Below, piece by piece: positions 6,679 to 16,610 of a stretch of 17,422 bases of DNA. The notes beneath the pieces were generated by a model. That model was given only the letters and a program-made list of their open reading frames with translations. It did no database searches and was not told the DNA's origin. Position 1 is the first letter of the stretch. Each line of letters opens with the position of its first letter. This stretch comes from a virus. Its lineage: Duplodnaviria > Heunggongvirae > Uroviricota > Caudoviricetes. The translations under genes were made by a program, and so were the position numbers. Location of the stretch: IMG/VR virus record IMGVR_UViG_2667527582_000002; one strand, given 5' to 3'.

Positions 6679-6887
6679 ACCAGAATGATATCGAAGCCAT
6701 GATTCAGCGTTATACGGAAGCTGAAATGGCGGTGCTGGACGGAAAATCCGTCACCTTTAATGGTCAGCAGATGACCATGGAAAACTTATCTGAGATCCGG
6801 CAGGGACGGCAGGAGTGGGAGCGCCGCCTTGCGGCTCTGATTACACGACGACGGGGGCATCCCGGGTATCGGCTGGCGAGGTTCTGA
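6675..6887 (+). CDS. head-tail joining protein (lambda gpW-like)
   Basis: 70 aa. Start ATG overlaps the terminase stop (ATGA), with GGAGG 6 nt upstream. C-terminus ITRRRGHPGYRLARF resembles the lambda W C-terminus (QRRRGPAGF). Confidence 0.7.
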   Translation: MNQNDIEAMIQRYTEAEMAVLDGKSVTFNGQQMTMENLSEIRQGRQEWERRLAALITRRRGHPGYRLARF

Positions 6888-8395
6888 TGGCAATTCTTGA
6901 TGATGTGATTGGCGTTTTTTCACCAGGATGGAAAGCGGCAAGGCTGCGTTCCCGTGCGGTGATCCAGGCTTATGAGGCCGTAAAAACGACGCGGACACAC
7001 AAAGCCCGACGGGAGAACCGAACTGCCGACCAGTTAAGCCAGTACGGGGCCGTGTCGTTACGTGAGCAGGCCCGTTACCTTGATAACAACCACGATCTGG
7101 TTATTGGTGTATTTGACAAGCTGGAAGAACGGGTGGTGGGGAAAAACGGGATTATTGTCGAGCCACATCCGGTATTACGCAATGGGGCCATTGCCCGTGA
7201 CCTGGCTGCGGAGATTCGCACCCGATGGAGTGAATGGTCTGTCAGCCCGGAAGTCACCGGGCAGTTTACCCGTCCGATGCTGGAACGTCTGATGCTTCGT
7301 ACCTGGCTGCGCGATGGTGAGGTGTTTGCCCAGATGGTTTCCGGGCGCATAAACAGCCTGACGCCTTCTGCCGGTGTTCATTTCTGGCTGGAGGCGCTCG
7401 AGCCGGACTTTATTCCCATGACCAGTGATGAGAGCAACAGGCTGAATCAGGGCGTGTTTGTTGATGACTGGGGGCGTCCCGAAAAATATCTGGTGTATAA
7501 AAGCCGTCCCGTATCCGGACGGCAGATGGAAACCAAAGAAGTGGATGCAGAGCGAATGCTGCATCTTAAATTTGTTCGCCGTCTGCACCAGATGCGCGGG
7601 ACGTCTTTATTGTCCGGTGTGCTGATCCGCCTCAGTGCTCTGAAAGAGTATGAAGATTCTGAGCTGACTGCAGCAAGGATCGCCGCTGCTCTGGGGATGT
7701 ACATCCGGAAAGGCGACGGGCAGAGCTATGAAGCGGATGGTAATGGCAGCAAGGATAAGGAACGCGAGCTTACCATTCAGCCAGGCATTATTTACGATGA
7801 TCTGAAACCCGGCGAAGAAATCGGAATGGTGAAGTCGGATCGCCCCAATCCTAACCTTGAAACTTTTCGTAATGGTCAGTTGCGTGCCGTGGCGGCGGGC
7901 AGTCGTCTGAGTTTTTCCAGTACAGCGCGCAACTATAACGGCACTTACAGCGCCCAGCGTCAGGAGCTGGTTGAATCCACTGATGGCTACCTGATCCTGC
8001 AGGACTGGTTTATTGGTGCCGTCACCCGTCCGATGTATCGTGCCTGGCTGAAACAGGCTGTGGCATCCGGTGTTATCAGGCTACCCCGCGATCTTGACCG
8101 TTCTTCACTGTATACCGCGGTGTATTCCGGACCGGTGATGCCGTGGATTGACCCTGTTAAGGAGGCTGAGGCCTGGAAAATCCAGATTCGTGGTGGAGCG
8201 GCGACAGAATCAGACTGGGTACGTGCTGGTGGTCGTAATCCGGATGATGTCAAACGTCGGCGCAAGGCCGAAATTGATGAAAACCGCAAGCTGGATCTGG
8301 TATTTGATACCGATCCGGCCAGTGATAAAGGAGGCAGCAGTGCCGCAACGAAACGACATGAGCCGCAGCACACCGACGACCAGTCCGAAGAATAA
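6887..8395 (+). CDS. portal protein (lambda gpB-like)
   Basis: 502 aa. ATG overlaps the W stop (TGATG). Size and position between W and the protease/capsid gene fit the lambda-type portal. The ORF-track extension to 6815 is upstream of the likely start. Confidence 0.88.
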   Translation: MAILDDVIGVFSPGWKAARLRSRAVIQAYEAVKTTRTHKARRENRTADQLSQYGAVSLREQARYLDNNHDLVIGVFDKLEERVVGKNGIIVEPHPVLRNGAIARDLAAEIRTRWSEWSVSPEVTGQFTRPMLERLMLRTWLRDGEVFAQMVSGRINSLTPSAGVHFWLEALEPDFIPMTSDESNRLNQGVFVDDWGRPEKYLVYKSRPVSGRQMETKEVDAERMLHLKFVRRLHQMRGTSLLSGVLIRLSALKEYEDSELTAARIAAALGMYIRKGDGQSYEADGNGSKDKERELTIQPGIIYDDLKPGEEIGMVKSDRPNPNLETFRNGQLRAVAAGSRLSFSSTARNYNGTYSAQRQELVESTDGYLILQDWFIGAVTRPMYRAWLKQAVASGVIRLPRDLDRSSLYTAVYSGPVMPWIDPVKEAEAWKIQIRGGAATESDWVRAGGRNPDDVKRRRKAEIDENRKLDLVFDTDPASDKGGSSAATKRHEPQHTDDQSEE

Positions 8396-10367
8396 TTCCT
8401 GGTTCAGGATGCAGGCTGGTCACCAGAGTGACGCGGATATTTATATTTATGACGAGATTGGTTTCTGGGGTGTTACAGCGAAGCAGTTTATCAGTGATCT
8501 GAATGCACTGGGCGATATCACCCACATTAATCTCCATATTAATTCACCGGGTGGCGATGTCTTTGAAGGCATCGCCATTTTTAATGCGCTGAAAACACAT
8601 GGTGCGTCCATTACCGTTTATGTCGACGGTGTGGCGGCGTCAATGGCGTCGGTCATTGCGATGGTGGGAAACCCGGTCATTATGCCGGAAAACACCTTCA
8701 TGATGATTCATAAACCATTTGGCTTTACGGGCGGTGATGCGGAGGACATGCGCACCTATGCCGACCTGCTCGATAAAGTTGAGGCGGTTCTGTTACCCGC
8801 TTATGCACAGAAAACCGGGAAAACCACCGATGAAATTGCTGCCATGCTGGCGGATGAGACCTGGATGTCCGGTGCCGAATGTCTGGCACATGGATTTGCT
8901 GATCAGGTAACGCCAGCCGTTAAGGCAATGGCATGTATTCAGTCAAAACGTACAGAGGAATTTAAAAAGATGCCGGAATCCATTCGAAACATGATTACTC
9001 CGCCACGCAACAGTGCTCCACGCGTACAGGATAATGAACCTGAAGCCTCCCGGACGCCAGTGCAGGCAGCAGCACCCGTGGTGGATGAAAACAGCATCCG
9101 TGCGCAGGTACTGGCAGAGCAAAAAGCGCGTGTAAACGGTATTAATGATCTGTTTGCCATGTTTGGCGGGCGTTATCAGACGCTGCAGGCTCAGTGTCTT
9201 GCCGATCCTGAATGTTCGCTGGAGCAGGCCCGCGAAAAGCTGTTGAACGAGATGGGGCGCGAGTCCACGCCATCCAATAAAAATACCCCGGCTCATATTT
9301 ATGCCGGTAACGGTAATTTTGTGGGGGACGGGATCCGCCAGGCGCTGATGGCGCGTGCCGGATTTGAAAAAACCGAACGTGATAATGTCTACAACGGGAT
9401 GACCCTGCGTGAATATGCCCGTATGTCACTGACTGAACGGGGTATTGGGGTTTCCAGTTATAACCCGATGCAGATGGTCGGTGCGGCGTTCACACACAGT
9501 ACGTCTGACTTCGGTAATATTCTGCTGGATGTTGCGAACAAAGCCATTCTGCAGGGCTGGGAAGATGCCCCTGAAACCTATGAACAGTGGACGCGGAAAG
9601 GTCAGTTGTCTGATTTTAAAATTGCCCATCGTGTGGGTATGGGTGGCTTCAGTGCTCTGCGTCAGGTGCGTGAAGGGGCGGAATATAAATACGTCACCAC
9701 CGGAGATAAACAGGCCACTATTGCACTGGCGACCTATGGCGAGCTGTTCAGTATCACCCGTCAGGCCATTATCAATGATGATCTGAATATGCTGACCGAT
9801 GTCCCGATGAAACTGGGCCGTGCGGCGAAATCCACTATTGCCGATCTGGTTTATGCCATTCTGACGTCTAACCCGAAAATCTCCACAGATAATGTAAGTC
9901 TGTTCGATAAAGCGAAACATGCAAACGTACTGGAGAGCGCTGCAATGGACGTGGCATCGCTGGATAAAGCCCGCCAGTTGATGCGCGTTCAGAAAGAGGG
10001 GGAGCGTCATCTGAATATTCGTCCTGCGTTCGTACTGGTACCGACGGCGATGGAGTCTGTTGCTAACCAGGTCATTCGCTCCTCAAGTGTCAAGGGGGCT
10101 GACATTAACGCCGGTATTATTAACCCGGTGAAAGATTTTGCGACCGTTATTGCAGAGCCTCGTCTTGATGATAACAGCCAGACCACCTTCTACCTGGCTG
10201 CGTCAAAAGGCTCCGATACGATTGAAGTGGCTTATCTCAACGGTGTGGATACGCCATATATTGATCAGATGGAGGGCTTCAGTGTGGATGGCGTGACAAC
10301 GAAAGTGCGTATTGACGCCGGTGTCGCGCCAGTTGATCACCGCGGTCTGGTGAAATGTACGGCGTAA
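8340..10367 (+). CDS. fused prohead protease (ClpP-like) / scaffold / major capsid protein
   Basis: Single uninterrupted frame. GTG 8340 (GGAGG 5 nt upstream) or ATG 8358 as start. The N-terminal ~200 aa carry a ClpP-like serine-protease signature (INSPGGDVFEGIAIFNAL...MASVIAMVG...MIHKP). A middle Ala/Gln/Glu-rich segment is scaffold-like. The C-terminal ~300 aa are assigned as the major capsid domain by size and position. Confidence 0.85.
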   Translation: MPQRNDMSRSTPTTSPKNNSWFRMQAGHQSDADIYIYDEIGFWGVTAKQFISDLNALGDITHINLHINSPGGDVFEGIAIFNALKTHGASITVYVDGVAASMASVIAMVGNPVIMPENTFMMIHKPFGFTGGDAEDMRTYADLLDKVEAVLLPAYAQKTGKTTDEIAAMLADETWMSGAECLAHGFADQVTPAVKAMACIQSKRTEEFKKMPESIRNMITPPRNSAPRVQDNEPEASRTPVQAAAPVVDENSIRAQVLAEQKARVNGINDLFAMFGGRYQTLQAQCLADPECSLEQAREKLLNEMGRESTPSNKNTPAHIYAGNGNFVGDGIRQALMARAGFEKTERDNVYNGMTLREYARMSLTERGIGVSSYNPMQMVGAAFTHSTSDFGNILLDVANKAILQGWEDAPETYEQWTRKGQLSDFKIAHRVGMGGFSALRQVREGAEYKYVTTGDKQATIALATYGELFSITRQAIINDDLNMLTDVPMKLGRAAKSTIADLVYAILTSNPKISTDNVSLFDKAKHANVLESAAMDVASLDKARQLMRVQKEGERHLNIRPAFVLVPTAMESVANQVIRSSSVKGADINAGIINPVKDFATVIAEPRLDDNSQTTFYLAASKGSDTIEVAYLNGVDTPYIDQMEGFSVDGVTTKVRIDAGVAPVDHRGLVKCTA

Positions 10368-12044: not shown

Positions 12045-12788
12045 ATGACCACACCAAATCCACTGGCAAAAACGAAAGGTGCGGGAACGACGTTCTGGAT
12101 GTACACCGGCAAGGGCGATGCGTTTGCGAACCCTTTATCGGACACTGACTGGCTGCGTCTTGCGATGGTGAAGGATCTGCAACCTGGCGAAATGACCGCT
12201 GATGCAGAAGATGACACTTATCTCGATGATGAAGATGCAGACTGGAAAACGACAACCCAGGGGCAGAAATCCGTCGGTGATACTTCGGCGACGCTGGCCT
12301 GGCGTCCGGGTGACAGCGGACAGAAAAAACTGGTTCAGTTGTTCGACTCCGGTGAAGTCTGCGCGTTTCGTATCAAATATCCCAACGGCACTGTTGATGT
12401 TTTCCGTGGCTGGCTGAGCTCACTGGGTAAAACCATTGCCTCAAAAGACGTGATGACCCACACAGTGAAAATCAGCGGTGTGGGGCGTCCGTATCTGGCA
12501 GAGGAAGGCACTGAAACAGTGAGCGTTACCGGGCTGACGGTGGCACCGGCATCTGCCAGTGTAAAAGTGGGAGCAACCACCACGCTGACCTTTACAGTAA
12601 AACCTGACGGAGCCAGTGACAAAGCGATCAGTGTGCATTCGACAGATCCACAGACTGCCACGGTGACCCTGAACGGGCTTGTGGCCACGGTGAAAGGCGT
12701 GAAGCAGGGCAGTGTCAGCATTGTGGGCATGACTTCTGACGGCGATTTTGTGGCAGTGGCTGCGGTGGCTGTCAGCGCCGCAGGTTAA
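12045..12788 (+). CDS. major tail protein (lambda gpV-like) with C-terminal Ig-like domain
   Basis: 247 aa, AGGAGG 5 nt upstream. KGAGTT(F/L)W(M/V)Y...ANPLSD.DW...YLDDEDADW...NGTVDVFRGW match lambda V. C-terminal Thr/Val-rich Big_2-like segment. Confidence 0.92.
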   Translation: MTTPNPLAKTKGAGTTFWMYTGKGDAFANPLSDTDWLRLAMVKDLQPGEMTADAEDDTYLDDEDADWKTTTQGQKSVGDTSATLAWRPGDSGQKKLVQLFDSGEVCAFRIKYPNGTVDVFRGWLSSLGKTIASKDVMTHTVKISGVGRPYLAEEGTETVSVTGLTVAPASASVKVGATTTLTFTVKPDGASDKAISVHSTDPQTATVTLNGLVATVKGVKQGSVSIVGMTSDGDFVAVAAVAVSAAG

Positions 12789-12808: not shown

Positions 12809-12832
12809 GCCCCGGTTATCCGGGGCTTTTTT
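12809..12832 (+). terminator. strong rho-independent terminator between the V-like and G-like genes (GCCCCGG-UUAU-CCGGGGC + U6)
   Basis: Perfect 7-bp GC stem, 4-nt loop, followed by TTTTTT. Confidence 0.7.
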
Positions 12833-12845
12833 GCAGGTGGAGAAC

Positions 12846-13235
12846 ATGATGTTTCTGAAACAGGGCACGTTTAATTATGAAAAGCAGTCCGTGGTGCTCA
12901 GTGAGCTGTCCGGGCTGCAGAGAATTGAATATCTGGCGTTTGTTCAGCAGCGAACGGCAAAGTTTGATGCCGAAGAGGGAGAACTGCCGGAGGCTGAACG
13001 ACAGATTGCTTTTCTGCGGATGGGGATGGATATCAATGCCTGGCTGGTTTCCCGCTCACTGTGGAATGCGGAACAGTCTCAGGATGTTGAGACGCTTTGC
13101 GCATCCGTTATTACAACATGGTCGTATGATGCCCTGGGAGCGGGGGCGGAGATGGTTCTGTCGCTGAGCGGTATGGGAGCCATTGAGAATGCCGGGGATT
13201 TGGAGCATGAGGTGCTGACGCCGGAAAAGTCCTGA
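12846..13235 (+). CDS. tail assembly chaperone (lambda gpG-like)
   Basis: 129 aa. MMFLK...SELSGLQRIEYLAF... parallels lambda G (MFLK...SELSALQRIEHLAL). Ends at TGA 13233-13235 just after a slippery sequence. Confidence 0.8.
   Translation: MMFLKQGTFNYEKQSVVLSELSGLQRIEYLAFVQQRTAKFDAEEGELPEAERQIAFLRMGMDINAWLVSRSLWNAEQSQDVETLCASVITTWSYDALGAGAEMVLSLSGMGAIENAGDLEHEVLTPEKS
13223..13229 (+). promoter_or_regulatory. putative -1 programmed ribosomal frameshift site (G GAA AAG) producing a G-T fusion
   Basis: Heptamer GGAAAAG in the G frame, 4 nt before the G stop. The -1 frame (T frame) is open from 13211 through 13573. Same position as the lambda G/GT slip site (GGGAAAG). Confidence 0.5.
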
Positions 13236-13573
13236 CGCGGGAAATGCAGTTTGTCATGCGGCTTGCCCGGGAGTTCAGGCGGGCAGACTGGCGGCGGATG
13301 CTGTCGGAAATGTCGGCCACTGAGCTTGGTGAGTGGGGCGATTATTTCCGGATGCAGAGCTTCAGTGATGTGTGGATGGATGCGCAGTTTGCCTCGCTGA
13401 AGGCATTGATCGTGAGAATGGTGTCCGGCAGCAGTGATGCTGCGGTGGCTGATTTCAGCCTTTTACCGGAAGAGAACGGGATACCGGAGCGAACGGACGA
13501 AGAACTGATGCATCTTGGGGAAGGTATTTCCGGAGGTGTGCGTTATGGACCAGATAGCCAACCTGGTCATTGA
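13223..13573 (+). CDS. T-frame portion of the tail assembly chaperone G-T fusion (lambda gpGT-like), in the -1 frame relative to G
   Basis: ORF in the -1 frame relative to G, open upstream past the G stop. Probably expressed only as a G-T fusion (12846..13573 with a -1 shift near 13226-13229). Lies directly upstream of the tape measure gene. Confidence 0.65.
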   Translation, partial: GKVLTREMQFVMRLAREFRRADWRRMLSEMSATELGEWGDYFRMQSFSDVWMDAQFASLKALIVRMVSGSSDAAVADFSLLPEENGIPERTDEELMHLGEGISGGVRYGPDSQPGH

Positions 13574-16500
13574 TTTGGGGATTGATGCGGCAGAGTTTAA
13601 AAATGAAATTCCCCGTATCAAAAACCTTCTGAATGGTGCAGCCAGCGATGCAGAACGGTCTTCTGCCCGTATGCAGCGTTTTATGGAGCGTCAGACTCAG
13701 GCCGCCCGGCAGACAACGCAGGCGGCGTCTTCGGCTGCAACAGCCGCATCCGTCCATGCGCAGACGGTGGAGAAGAACGCACAGGCTCATGAACGCATGG
13801 CCCGCGAGGTGGAGAAAACCCGCCAGCGTATGGAGGCACTGAGCCAGAAAATGCGCGAGGAACAGGCGCAGGCCATGGCTCTGGCGGAGGCTCAGGATAA
13901 AGCAGCTGCTGCGTTTTATCGTCAGATTGACAGTGTGAAACAGGCCAGTGCGGGGCTGCAGGAATTACAGCGTATTCAGCAGCAGATCCGACAGGCCAGA
14001 AACAGTGGCGGGATTGGTCAGCAGGATTATCTGGCGCTGATTTCTGAGGTTACGGCGAAAACCCGTGTTCTTACGCAGGCTGAGGAAGAGGCTACCCGAC
14101 AGAAAGTGGCGTTTATCCGTCAGCTTAAAGAGCAGGCAACCCGCCAGAATCTTTCTTCTTCTGAGTTGCTTCGTGCTAAGGCTGCCCAGCTGGGGGTAAG
14201 CAGTGCTGCAGAAGTGTATATCCGCAAAATGGAGCAGGCAGGAAAAGCCACGCATTCGCTGGGTCTGAAAAGTGCAGCGGCCCGCCAGGAGATAGGCGTT
14301 CTGATAGGTGAACTGGCCCGCGGCAATTTAGGGGCGCTGAGGGGATCCGGGATAACGCTGGCTAACCGTGCCGGATGGATAGACACTCTGATGTCACCGA
14401 AAGGCATGATGCTTGGCGGGGTTATTGGCGGTATTGCCGCGTCCGTCTATGGTCTGGGTAAAGCCTGGTATGACGGTCAGAAGGAGGGGGAAGAATTTAA
14501 CCGCCAGTTGTCGCTGACGGGGCATTATGCCGGAGTCACTGCCGGGCAGCTGTGGACGCTCAGTCGTGCTATTTCCGGGAATGGTATCACGCAACATGCT
14601 GCAGCCGGTGTGCTGGCTCAGGTGGTGGGGAGTGGTGCATTTCGTGGAAACGATATCGGTATGGTGGCGAGAGCTGCCGCACAGATGGAGCGATCGGTTG
14701 GCCAGTCGGTCAGCGATACCATAAATCAGTTTAAGCGGCTGAAGGATGATCCTGTAAATGCCGCGAAGGCTCTGGACAATGAGCTGCATTTTCTTACTGC
14801 CACTCAGCTTGAGCAGATACGTGTCCTTGGGGATCAGGGACGGTCCAGTGATGCTGCACGGATAGCCATGTCTGCACTGGCAGAGGAAACCGGTCGGCGT
14901 ACTGCGGATATTGATAATAACCTCAATGCGCTTGGCAGTACGCTGAAGTATCTGTCTGATTTATGGAGTCGTTTCTGGGATGCGGCCATGAATATTGGTC
15001 GTGAAGACTCGCTGGATGAACAGATTGCCGCTTTACAGGAGAAAGTGTCGCGGGCGAAAAGACTCCCCTGGACGGCATCATCTTCTCAGGTTGAATACGA
15101 TCAGCAGCGTCTTAACGATCTTCAGGAGAAAAAACGCCAGAAGGATTTGCAGGATGCAAAAGAGCAGGCAGAGCGGAATTATCAGGAGCAACAGAAACGA
15201 CGTAATGCTGAAAATGCTGCACTGAACCGGATGAATGAAACGGAAGCAGCACGACATCAGCGTGAAATTGCGCGTATTAATGCCATGCAGTACGCCGATC
15301 AGGCTGTCAGGGATGCAGCGATACAACGTGAAAATGAACGTTACGAGAAAGCCCTGGCATCCGGTAAGAAAAAAACACGCGAAACCCGTAATGATGAGGC
15401 CACCCGGTTATTGCTGCAGTACAGTCAGCAACAGGCACAGGTGGAAGGACAGATTGCTGCTGCAAGACAGTCAGCAGGCATTGCCACTGAAAAGATGACA
15501 GAAGCGCATAAACAGCTTCTGGCTCTGCAGCAGCGCATCAGCGATCTGGACGGGAAAAAACTGACGGCAGATGAAAAGAGTGTGCTGGCCCGTAAAGATG
15601 AACTGATTCAGGCACTGACGCTGCTGGATGTAAAACAGCAGGAGCTTCAGAAACAGACGGCACTCAACGATCTGAAGAAAAAAACAATTCAGCTGACCAG
15701 TCAACTGGCTGAAGAAGAGCTCGCTCAGCGTCAGCAACATGACCTGGATATCGCCACGGTGGGTATGGGTGATCAGCAGCGGCAGCGATATCAGGTACAA
15801 CTGAGTCTTCGCCAGAAATACCAGCAACAGCTGGAGCAGTTGAGGCGGGATAGTGAGCAGAAAGGGACATATAACACGGATGACTACAGAAAGGCCGAGC
15901 AGGCGCTGACGGAGAGCCTGAACCGACAACTGAATGAGAATCGCCGTTACTGGCAACAGCTTGAAGTTGTGCAGGGTAACTGGAAAAACGGAGTCCTGCG
16001 TGCATTTCAGGATTTTACCGTGGATGCAGACAATACGGCAGGAACAGCAGAACAGGTGTTCTCGTCAGCCTTCAGCAACATGGGAAATGGCCTGGCAACT
16101 TTTGTCACTACCGGCAAACTCAACTTCAAATCCTTCACCTCTTCGGTGCTGTCAGATATGGCGAAAATCCTGGCGCAGGCAACCATGATGAAATCGATAA
16201 AAGGGATTGGCAGTGTACTGGGATTTGATCTCAGCAGCCTTTCCCTGAATGCCAATGGGGGGATTTATCAGTCTGCTGATTTGAGTCGTTACAGTGGCAC
16301 GGTGGTTAACCGTCCGACGTTTTTTGCTTTTGCAAAAGGCGCGGGTGTGATGGGGGAAGCGGGACCTGAAGCCATTCTGCCACTGCGTCGTGGTGCTGAC
16401 GGTAAGCTGGGGGTTGTGGCGGATATTGGTGGTTCAGGTATGGCGATGTTTGCCCCGCAGTACAACATCGAGATCAATAACGATGGCACGAACGGGCAGA

Positions 16501-16610
16501 TAGGTCCGGCTGCCCTGAAGGTGGTTTATGACCTTGGGAAAAAAGCGGCAGCGGACTTTATGCAACAGCAGGCCCGTGATGGTGGTCGGTTAAGTGGAGC
16601 ATATCGGTAA
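13545..16610 (+). CDS. tail tape measure protein (lambda gpH-like)
   Basis: 1021 aa, GGAGG 8 nt upstream of ATG 13545. N-terminus (LVIDLGIDAAEF) and C-terminus (NNDGTNGQIGPAALKVVYD...RDGG) match lambda H. Long internal Gln/Glu/Arg/Lys-rich coiled-coil region. Confidence 0.92.
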   Translation: MDQIANLVIDLGIDAAEFKNEIPRIKNLLNGAASDAERSSARMQRFMERQTQAARQTTQAASSAATAASVHAQTVEKNAQAHERMAREVEKTRQRMEALSQKMREEQAQAMALAEAQDKAAAAFYRQIDSVKQASAGLQELQRIQQQIRQARNSGGIGQQDYLALISEVTAKTRVLTQAEEEATRQKVAFIRQLKEQATRQNLSSSELLRAKAAQLGVSSAAEVYIRKMEQAGKATHSLGLKSAAARQEIGVLIGELARGNLGALRGSGITLANRAGWIDTLMSPKGMMLGGVIGGIAASVYGLGKAWYDGQKEGEEFNRQLSLTGHYAGVTAGQLWTLSRAISGNGITQHAAAGVLAQVVGSGAFRGNDIGMVARAAAQMERSVGQSVSDTINQFKRLKDDPVNAAKALDNELHFLTATQLEQIRVLGDQGRSSDAARIAMSALAEETGRRTADIDNNLNALGSTLKYLSDLWSRFWDAAMNIGREDSLDEQIAALQEKVSRAKRLPWTASSSQVEYDQQRLNDLQEKKRQKDLQDAKEQAERNYQEQQKRRNAENAALNRMNETEAARHQREIARINAMQYADQAVRDAAIQRENERYEKALASGKKKTRETRNDEATRLLLQYSQQQAQVEGQIAAARQSAGIATEKMTEAHKQLLALQQRISDLDGKKLTADEKSVLARKDELIQALTLLDVKQQELQKQTALNDLKKKTIQLTSQLAEEELAQRQQHDLDIATVGMGDQQRQRYQVQLSLRQKYQQQLEQLRRDSEQKGTYNTDDYRKAEQALTESLNRQLNENRRYWQQLEVVQGNWKNGVLRAFQDFTVDADNTAGTAEQVFSSAFSNMGNGLATFVTTGKLNFKSFTSSVLSDMAKILAQATMMKSIKGIGSVLGFDLSSLSLNANGGIYQSADLSRYSGTVVNRPTFFAFAKGAGVMGEAGPEAILPLRRGADGKLGVVADIGGSGMAMFAPQYNIEINNDGTNGQIGPAALKVVYDLGKKAAADFMQQQARDGGRLSGAYR

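What the first reader, a model, noticed from the sequence alone, without database searches (positions are those of the whole stretch)
13211..13235. G-T programmed -1 frameshift conserved in position but with a variant slippery heptamer (GGAAAAG)
The T reading frame is in the -1 frame relative to G and is open from 13211. The G frame ends at 13235, and the sequence G GAA AAG sits 4 nt before the stop, where lambda has G GGA AAG. Re-pairing of Lys-tRNA (AAG to AAA) is perfect, while the P-site Glu-tRNA would need a G-U pair. This suggests either single-tRNA slippage on A-AAG or a different frameshift efficiency, and hence a different G:GT ratio, from lambda.
Basis: partly seen in the sequence, partly recalled or inferred. 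Interest (0 to 1): 0.45.

Follow-up and report, generated by a model that had tools for sequence, protein, structure and literature searches.

The report
Lambda-type G-T tail frameshift site
This is the well-known ribosomal frameshift that fuses two phage tail-assembly proteins (G and T), here using the slip sequence GGAAAAG instead of lambda's GGGAAAG; that spelling turns out to be the commonest one among lambda-like prophages, so the site is real but ordinary.

Summary
G (12846-13235) ends at TGA 13233-35. The -1 (T) frame is open from 13211. G GAA AAG (13223-29) is the only in-phase heptamer in the 25-nt overlap that lets the A-site tRNA re-pair cognately. One codon (3 nt, not 4) separates it from the stop.

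The window is a mEp460/cdtI/phi458-type lambdoid phage. Its G-T module is present in 1846 of 5426 complete E. coli genomes.

I compared 222 distinct G-T junctions in 28 protein clusters. G GAA AAG occupies the homologous Lys position in 19 clusters, lambda's G GGA AAG in 3, and A AAA AAG in 2. T-frame homology starts exactly at the heptamer Lys in every cluster. ATG 13244 is confined to this clade.

Heptamer base 1 matches the first base of the P-site codon in 27 of 28 clusters. This favours two-tRNA slippage with a tolerated middle-position G-U pair for tRNA-Glu. No conserved downstream RNA structure was found. An upstream Shine-Dalgarno-like GAGGTG is only a weak candidate stimulator.

Databases annotate T here as a separate gene. 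Frameshift efficiency and the fusion protein itself remain untested. Verdict: a new member of a known kind, of modest interest.

The parts
12045..12788 (+). Major tail protein gene (lambda V homologue), upstream neighbour of G
   Evidence: Pfam Phage_TTP_12 2.7e-66 plus Big_2. Annotated as major tail protein in Ayreon and mEp460 at the equivalent coordinates.
12809..12832 (+). Intrinsic-terminator-like hairpin (GCCCCGG-TTAT-CCGGGGC followed by T6) between V and G
   Evidence: 7 G-C pairs. Annotated as a terminator in Ayreon and mEp460. Non-homologous hairpins with T-runs sit at the same place in several other clusters but not in lambda. It is context for the finding, not part of the slip site.
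12846..13235 (+). Gene G, tail assembly chaperone (zero frame). The start is ATG 12846 or 12849.
   Evidence: Translation. Pfam PF06894 Phage_TAC_2 1.8e-39. PGAP names it 'gpG: phage tail assembly chaperone G'.
13209..13214 (+). Shine-Dalgarno-like GAGGTG, 8 nt upstream of the heptamer; a candidate weak 5' stimulator (inferred)
   Evidence: Anti-SD duplex of -6.9 kcal/mol. SD-like complementarity 5-11 nt upstream is mildly enriched in GGAAAAG clusters (Wilcoxon p about 0.025, not corrected for phylogeny) and absent in the three GGGAAAG clusters. About a quarter of the distinct junction contexts among the loci in hand carry GAGGCG here instead.
13208..13210 (+). TGA in the -1 (T) frame; sets the upstream limit of the frameshift window
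13223..13229 (+). Slip site G GAA AAG. P site: GAA (tRNA-Glu) re-pairing to GGA. A site: AAG (tRNA-Lys) re-pairing to AAA.
   Evidence: Sequence. The same heptamer occupies the homologous Lys in 19 of 28 clusters and 141 of 222 distinct junctions. It is invariant in all 72 distinct sequences of this clade.
13233..13235 (+). Stop codon of G, one codon after the heptamer
   Evidence: Across the family the stop lies 1 or 5 codons after the heptamer, and both layouts occur with both heptamers.
13229..13573 (+). T portion of the predicted GT fusion. The -1 frame is read from GTC 13229. Predicted GT = join(12846..13229,13229..13573), 242 aa.
   Evidence: Translation. Pfam PF06223 Phage_tail_T 5e-15. 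BLASTP to lambda T starts at the heptamer Lys, E=4e-28.
13244..13246 (+). ATG used by GenBank and PGAP annotators as the start of a stand-alone T gene; probably not the functional start
   Evidence: Annotated. It is present only in clusters 0 and 25; elsewhere the first T-frame ATG lies at +26, +44 or +68. It is CTG in Gifsy-1 and Fels-1 and CTT in Gifsy-2. GGGA lies only 1 nt upstream, so there is no usable SD spacing.
13545..16610 (+). Tape measure gene (lambda H homologue), downstream neighbour, overlapping the end of T
   Evidence: Pfam TMP_2, Tape_meas_lam_C and TMP_4. Annotated.

Best explanation
This is the gpG/gpGT tail-assembly-chaperone recoding site of a mEp460/cdtI-type lambdoid phage. 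Most ribosomes translate G to the stop at 13233-35. A minority slip back one base when GAA (P site, tRNA-Glu) and AAG (A site, tRNA-Lys) occupy 13224-13229. tRNA-Lys re-pairs perfectly with AAA. tRNA-Glu re-pairs with GGA through two Watson-Crick pairs and a middle-position G-U pair. Translation then continues in the T frame from GTC 13229 to 13573, giving a 242-aa GT fusion (...TPEK-VLTREMQF...). By analogy with lambda, the G part should bind the tape measure protein and the T part should recruit the major tail protein, with the G:GT ratio fixed by slip efficiency. Shown here: the anatomy, the homology, the position of the junction, and the conservation pattern of the heptamer. Inferred: that the fusion is actually made, that both tRNAs slip, and any role for the upstream GAGGTG. 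No RNA structure appears to be involved.
For: The gene order V-G-T-H and the Pfam families are those of lambda. T-frame homology begins exactly at the heptamer Lys against lambda and in all 28 clusters, while the T frame upstream of it is unconserved. CCGGAAAAG-NCC-TGA is retained in Gifsy-1, Gifsy-2, Fels-1 and a Citrobacter prophage at 67-70% DNA identity, while the adjoining G tail varies in length and sequence. In the 20 clusters with NGAAAAG, base 1 is G in 19, through four different preceding codons (GCG 9, CCG 7, GTG 2, ACG 1). Neighbouring third codon positions reach at most 30-55% for any one base. The naive probability from the genes' own codon usage is about 3e-8. Base 1 equals the first base of the P-site codon in 27 of 28 clusters: G_GAA, G_GGA, A_AAA and G_GCA. 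The GAA and AAG codons are never replaced by their synonyms GAG, or by AAA except when a stop follows directly. Isolated, propagating phages (Ayreon, mEp460, phi458, cdtI) carry this module, and their junctions were in the surveyed set. The Gifsy-1 and Gifsy-2 RefSeq records already describe their T homologues as made by translational frameshifting. Non-canonical G_GA-type P-site codons are accepted shift sites in several eukaryotic virus groups (PMC5009743). GAA-to-GGA re-pairing through G-U has been proposed for actinophage chaperone sites (PMC10885494).
Against: There is no direct evidence here that the fusion protein exists. In a reconstituted E. coli system G GAA AAG was chosen as the poorly slippery control and gave mainly zero-frame product with wild-type EF-G (PMC6924986). 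A_AAG without a stimulator is near background in vivo, about 0.15% (PMC4066793). I found no conserved downstream structure that could compensate. Rare natural variants keep only the A_AAG tetramer: A_GAA_AAG in L235 and G_GCA_AAG in L249. P-site re-pairing may therefore be helpful rather than essential. The clusters are phylogenetically related, so the statistics for base 1 overstate independence.
Confidence: 0.85

Rival explanations
1. The site is a programmed -1 shift, but only tRNA-Lys slips on A_AAG, either in the A site or in the P site before GUC is decoded. tRNA-Glu makes no contribution. The product is the same GT fusion.
For: A_AAR is the only strictly universal feature. P-site codons GAA, GGA, AAA and GCA all occur, and variants such as A_GAA_AAG (L235) and G_GCA_AAG (L249) exist. 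Single-tRNA A_AAG shifting is established in E. coli, for example at G_CGA_AAG in IS1222 (PMC5009743).
Against: Base 1 is G in 19 of 20 NGAAAAG clusters despite amino-acid changes in the codon that contains it, and it covaries with the first base of the P-site codon across the family. A_AAG alone needs a strong pseudoknot to reach a few percent, and none is present.
Confidence: 0.25
2. T is made on its own from ATG 13244, by independent initiation or by termination-reinitiation after the G stop 8 nt upstream, as current database annotation implies. No GT fusion is needed.
For: GenBank and PGAP annotate a 109-aa T CDS from this ATG. The ATG is conserved within this clade and lies close to the G stop, a geometry that allows coupling.
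Against: The ATG is missing in sister clades with the same site: CTG or CTT in Gifsy-1, Gifsy-2 and Fels-1. The first T-frame ATG differs widely among clusters. Conserved residues K-V/A-L-x-x-E lie upstream of it. There is no SD at a workable spacing. In lambda the T domain is described as acting as part of gpGT, whose G part binds the tape measure protein (PMC5009743). Lambda-type T is annotated the same way by PGAP although it is known to be frameshift-derived, so the annotation carries no weight.
Confidence: 0.07
3. The heptamer is a weakened site. It shifts far less than lambda's roughly 1 in 30, so these phages run on a much lower GT:G ratio or need a so far unrecognised stimulator such as the upstream SD-like element.
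For: In vitro and reporter data rank G GAA AAG and A_AAG well below G GGA AAG. SD-like complementarity 5-11 nt upstream is mildly enriched in GGAAAAG clusters and absent in GGGAAAG clusters. This is compatible with the best explanation; it concerns the level, not the event.
Against: Three of the 19 GGAAAAG clusters have no SD-like element at all. GGAAAAG is the majority and probably ancestral state, and it interchanges with GGGAAAG and AAAAAAG on the tree, which suggests functional equivalence. Nothing was measured here.
Confidence: 0.4

Closest known systems
Bacteriophage lambda G/GT programmed -1 frameshift (G GGA AAG)
   Same: The gene order V-G-T-H and the Pfam families match. The T frame is -1 relative to G. 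The slip is at the homologous Lys codon and the junction residues are G/E-K-V. The A-site tRNA-Lys makes the same AAG-to-AAA re-pairing. No conserved RNA structure was found across the family, lambda cluster included.
   Different: The P-site codon is GAA (Glu) rather than GGA (Gly). After the shift the G-U pair falls in the middle of the codon instead of at the wobble position. The G stop is 1 codon after the heptamer rather than 5. There is an SD-like element 8 nt upstream and an intrinsic terminator between V and G, both absent in lambda.
Gifsy-1, Gifsy-2 and Fels-1 prophage G/T junctions (Salmonella)
   Same: The signal is identical: CCG GAA AAG (T/C)CC TGA, with the same stop layout. The Gifsy-1 and Gifsy-2 records already state that T is made by translational frameshifting.
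   Different: DNA identity is only 67-70%. These prophages lack the ATG that annotators use as a T start in the window's clade.
Non-canonical G_GAN_NNN heptamers of eukaryotic RNA viruses (insect-specific flaviviruses, dianthoviruses, umbraviruses, mesoniviruses)
   Same: The X_XX part is G_GA, so the P-site tRNA re-pairs with a G-U type mismatch at the middle position (PMC5009743).
   Different: Those sites are read by eukaryotic ribosomes, use different A-site codons, and generally have 3' RNA stimulators. There is no homology with the phage genes.
Single-tRNA A_AAG shift sites (IS1222 G_CGA_AAG, Bacillus cdd A_CGA_AAG)
   Same: They rely on the high shiftiness of E. coli tRNA-Lys(UUU) on A_AAG (PMC5009743; PMC4066793).
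   Different: Those sites rely on strong 3' stimulators, and the tRNA on the 5' codon does not re-pair in the -1 frame. Here no 3' structure is found, and base 1 is conserved as if the P-site tRNA re-pairs.

Membership tests
Lambda-type gpG/gpGT tail assembly chaperone pair expressed by -1 frameshifting | A G homologue located between the major tail gene and the tape measure gene | tested here: met
   Pfam PF06894 1.8e-39, flanked by Phage_TTP_12 and TMP_2/Tape_meas_lam_C genes.
Lambda-type gpG/gpGT tail assembly chaperone pair expressed by -1 frameshifting | A T domain encoded in the -1 frame, overlapping the 3' end of G, with homology running up to the slip site | tested here: met
   PF06223 5e-15. 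BLASTP to lambda T from the heptamer Lys, E=4e-28, no gaps. The same holds in 28 clusters.
Lambda-type gpG/gpGT tail assembly chaperone pair expressed by -1 frameshifting | An in-phase slip site within the overlap, at the conserved Lys codon | tested here: met
   G GAA AAG at 13223-29. The Lys is an invariant column. The heptamer is conserved across 19 clusters.
Lambda-type gpG/gpGT tail assembly chaperone pair expressed by -1 frameshifting | No conserved independent start for T | tested here: met
   ATG 13244 occurs only in clusters 0 and 25 and is absent in Gifsy-1, Gifsy-2 and Fels-1. It is present in the window itself, so independent initiation is not formally excluded for this phage.
Lambda-type gpG/gpGT tail assembly chaperone pair expressed by -1 frameshifting | A GT fusion protein made at a low, fixed ratio to G and required for tail assembly | not testable with these tools
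   This needs a reporter assay, mass spectrometry or genetics.
Canonical X_XXY_YYZ simultaneous-slippage heptamer | XXX are three identical bases, so the P-site tRNA keeps its first two pairs after the shift | tested here: not met
   The bases are G-G-A. The shifted P-site codon GGA pairs with the tRNA-Glu anticodon through a middle G-U pair. I therefore do not file it as canonical; it is the G_GA type of near-canonical heptamer.
Canonical X_XXY_YYZ simultaneous-slippage heptamer | YYZ allows cognate A-site re-pairing (A_AAG in E. coli) | tested here: met
   AAG to AAA for the single E. coli tRNA-Lys (PMC4066793).
Single-tRNA A_AAG (tetramer/hexamer) shift sites | An A_AAG motif in phase | tested here: met
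   Positions 13226-13229.
Single-tRNA A_AAG (tetramer/hexamer) shift sites | A strong 3' stimulatory structure, required for appreciable shifting on tetramers | tested here: not met
   RNAalifold on 28 clusters gave -1.3 kcal/mol and no covarying pairs. The subfamily fold shows nothing at 5-9 nt spacing. The single-sequence fold has z = -1.65. There is no Rfam hit.

The most novel reading that the evidence does not exclude
G GAA AAG, which ribosome biophysicists use as a poorly slippery control, may in vivo give a lambda-like few-percent programmed shift with no RNA structure. This would work through a tolerated middle-position G-U pair of P-site tRNA-Glu, possibly helped by an SD-like element 8 nt upstream. 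If so, the most common natural G-T slip site in enterobacterial prophages falls outside the X_XXY_YYZ rule, and motif-based genome scans miss it systematically.
Probability: 0.3. Interest if true: 0.45.

Novelty: new member of a known kind. Interest (0 to 1): 0.3.

Why it matters
There are three practical consequences.

**Annotation.** In this clade T is annotated as a stand-alone 109-aa protein, and the module is present in 1846 of 5426 complete E. coli genomes. The predicted functional product, a 242-aa GT fusion, is missing from the records examined.

**Motif rules.** Frameshift finders and surveys restricted to X_XXY_YYZ, such as the Enterobacteriaceae screen in PMC4066793, cannot see this site. 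Yet it is the majority spelling in the lambda-type G/T family as sampled here.

**Mechanism.** The family offers a natural allelic series at one homologous position: G_GAA_AAG, G_GGA_AAG, A_AAA_AAG, A_GAA_AAG, G_GCA_AAG, and AAA followed directly by a stop. This series could be used to measure how much P-site re-pairing contributes to -1 shifting without RNA stimulators.

None of this changes the understanding of what G and GT do.

Tried and rejected
- **Downstream stimulatory RNA structure.** The single-sequence fold of 13223-13330 is not better than shuffles (z = -1.65). The 28-cluster consensus has 4 pairs, -1.3 kcal/mol and no compensatory changes. In the six-sequence subfamily fold, one small hairpin abuts the heptamer with no spacer and is broken in Gifsy-2, and the other starts about 40 nt downstream in a protein-conserved stretch. 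Rejected.
- **Known RNA family.** No meaningful Rfam hit.
- **Near stop codon as compensation for a weaker heptamer.** The stop-after-1-codon and stop-after-5-codons layouts both occur with both GGAAAAG and GGGAAAG, and the layout changes at least 6 times on the tree. Rejected as a general rule. In the window the stop is not adjacent to the Lys codon, so a classical 'shifty stop' effect does not apply.
- **Transcriptional slippage.** A run of four A is too short (established knowledge). Not pursued.
- **Literature.** Xu et al. 2004 (Mol Cell) and Licznar et al. 2003 (EMBO J) are not held. I therefore could not check whether GGAAAAG is listed in the first, or what value GAA_AAG gave in the second. 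Full-text searches for GGAAAAG or 'G GAA AAG' with frameshift, slippery or tail terms found only Peng et al. 2019 as relevant. Two searches were wasted on unsuitable terms.
- **Thermodynamic model of PMC6787027.** It cannot be applied because its 64 variants never change a second-position pair.
- **Sampling.** The first viral-contig scan returned only near-identical loci. Diversity came from re-seeding with divergent G proteins and from the genome scan.

Full report
**What is in the window**

The region lies in the tail module of a lambdoid phage. It is 97-99.8% identical to Escherichia phages phi458, Ayreon, mEp460, cdtI and Tritos. Pfam identifies four genes:
- a lambda-type major tail protein gene, 12045-12788;
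- gene G, 12846-13235 (Phage_TAC_2, 1.8e-39);
- a -1 frame encoding Phage_tail_T (5e-15);
- a tape measure gene starting at 13545.

The zero frame ends ...CTG ACG CCG GAA AAG TCC TGA, with the stop at 13233-35. The -1 frame has a TGA at 13208-10 and is then open to 13573. G GAA AAG sits at 13223-29 in the right phase. The heptamer alone is not remarkable: there are 7 copies in the window against about 3 expected. Its meaning comes from phase, position and homology.

**Is it the lambda site?**

Lambda reads ...GCG GGA AAG TGT TCG ACG GTG AGC TGA. The Lys of the heptamer is an invariant column in an alignment of eleven divergent G proteins. The T-frame translation from that Lys aligns with lambda T from its first residue, without gaps (38% identity, E=4e-28). 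Gifsy-1, Gifsy-2 and Fels-1 are only 67-70% identical in DNA. All three carry CCG GAA AAG (T/C)CC TGA, while the acidic G tail just upstream differs in length and sequence. In those three, the codon corresponding to ATG 13244 is CTG or CTT.

**Family survey**

I collected 406 loci with four seeds, using five viral-contig scans and one genome scan. They reduced to 222 distinct G-T sequences in 28 clusters (G protein, 80% single linkage).

| Sequence at the homologous position | Clusters |
|---|---|
| G GAA AAG | 19 (141 of 222 distinct sequences) |
| G GGA AAG | 3 (lambda group and two Serratia-type lineages) |
| A AAA AAG | 2 |
| A GAA AAG | 1 (one distinct sequence) |
| Lys AAA followed directly by TAG | 3 |

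- On a neighbour-joining tree of predicted GT proteins, GGAAAAG is spread throughout. GGGAAAG appears at least twice inside it.
- The stop lies 1 or 5 codons after the heptamer, independently of heptamer type.
- In every cluster the conserved T-frame block K-[VA]-L-x-x-E-L-x-F-x-x-[KR]-L-A-R-E-F-x-R-P-D-W-R starts at the heptamer Lys, and the T frame upstream of it is unconserved. This is the signature of a recoding junction.
- The first T-frame ATG lies at +14 only in the window's clade and its nearest relative, and at +26, +44 or +68 elsewhere.

The 'variant' is therefore the common form, and lambda is the exception in this sample. Within E. coli genomes alone the lambda-type module is the more frequent one: 3704 genomes against 1846 of 5426.

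**Mechanism**

The universal element is A_AAR at the Lys codon, consistent with the known shiftiness of E. coli tRNA-Lys on A_AAG (PMC4066793). Whether the P-site tRNA also takes part can be judged from heptamer base 1, which is a synonymous third position of the preceding codon.
- Base 1 is G in 19 of 20 NGAAAAG clusters, through GCG, CCG, GTG and ACG. Neighbouring third positions reach only 30-55% for any one base.
- With the genes' own G-ending usage of 31-41%, the naive probability is about 3e-8. The clusters are related, so this figure is an upper bound on significance.
- Across the whole family, base 1 equals the first base of the P-site codon in 27 of 28 clusters.

This pattern is what P-site re-pairing predicts. 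tRNA-Glu (anticodon UUC) on GGA keeps pairs 1 and 3 and forms a G-U pair in the middle. In lambda, tRNA-Gly on GGG also acquires one G-U pair, at the wobble position. The rare variants A_GAA_AAG (L235) and G_GCA_AAG (L249) show that P-site re-pairing may not be indispensable.

**Stimulators**

- No conserved RNA structure follows the site, and there is no Rfam match.
- The window has GAGGTG 8 nt upstream (-6.9 kcal/mol against the anti-SD).
- SD-like complementarity 5-11 nt upstream is mildly enriched in GGAAAAG clusters (p about 0.025, uncorrected). It is absent from all three GGGAAAG clusters, but also from three GGAAAAG clusters. I treat this as a lead only.

**What argues for caution**

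- In a reconstituted system G GAA AAG was used as the poorly slippery control and gave mainly zero-frame product (PMC6924986).
- A_AAG without a stimulator is near background in vivo.
- The efficiency here is unknown and could be well below lambda's roughly 1:30 (PMC5009743).
- Nevertheless, propagating phages carry this site. If GT is essential as in lambda, this implies enough GT is made.

**Comparison with what is known**

- The G-T frameshift is textbook, and the Gifsy-1 and Gifsy-2 records already mention it.
- G_GA-type non-canonical heptamers are accepted in eukaryotic viruses.
- PRFect includes a 'twofour' motif and discusses GAA-to-GGA G-U re-pairing.
- In the searchable literature I found no description of GGAAAAG as the lambda-family slip site. 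Xu et al. 2004 could not be read.
- GenBank and PGAP annotate T here as a separate CDS from ATG 13244. They do the same for lambda-type T.

**Verdict**

The finding is real, correctly located and correctly interpreted. It is a new member of a known kind rather than a new mechanism. Its modest interest lies in three points: the non-canonical heptamer is the prevalent natural spelling, it is missed by annotation, and the family provides a natural series for testing the contribution of the P-site tRNA.

Noticed in passing
window 12809-12832 (+): A strong intrinsic-terminator-like hairpin (7 G-C pairs, 4-nt loop, T6) lies in the 57-nt gap between the major tail gene V and G. Non-homologous hairpins with T-runs sit 12-19 nt before G in several other clusters (L217, L178, L286, L285, L364). 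Lambda, Gifsy-1 and most other clusters lack one. It may set the V:G expression ratio.
   Followed up: partly
L147 1085-1221, L178 1079-1215, L286 1070-1206: Three divergent clusters replace the heptamer by ...CTG GCA AAA TAG or ...CTG GAA AAA TAG, with the zero-frame stop directly after the Lys codon. T-frame homology (G-K-I-A-A-R-E) still starts at that Lys. This looks like a P-site tRNA-Lys slip on A_AAA with a stop codon in the A site ('shifty stop'), a different solution at the same junction.
   Followed up: partly
L235 about 1099-1105; L249 (cluster 4): Single natural variants read A GAA AAG (preceding codon GCA) and G GCA AAG. They retain only the A_AAG tetramer, and the T ORFs are intact. 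They may be transitional or weakened alleles.
   Followed up: no
window 13209-13214 and cluster representatives: SD-like complementarity 5-11 nt upstream of the heptamer is mildly enriched in GGAAAAG clusters and absent from the three GGGAAAG clusters. The sample is small and no phylogenetic correction was applied.
   Followed up: partly
window 13244-13573; NZ_CP026491.1 (L412 999-1328): RefSeq/PGAP and GenBank records annotate T as a stand-alone CDS from an ATG that is not conserved outside this clade. None of the annotated records examined for this clade carries a GT fusion or ribosomal-slippage feature, although the module occurs in 1846 of 5426 complete E. coli genomes.
   Followed up: yes
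L106-L118, L120-L124 (genome-contig hits): Short, low-coverage contigs carry lambda-type G. The five checked by direct comparison (L120-L124) are 93-100% identical to lambda G, and 16 loci share lambda's exact junction sequence. They come from assemblies of unrelated organisms (Kitasatospora, Paenibacillus, Neobacillus, Shewanella, Leeuwenhoekiella and others). They are most likely lambda DNA contamination of those assemblies.
   Followed up: no
window 8148-10367 (+): A 739-aa ORF overlaps the end of the portal-sized ORF (6815-8395). It may be a fused protease/scaffold/capsid gene of the kind seen in some lambdoid prophages. I did not examine it.
   Followed up: no
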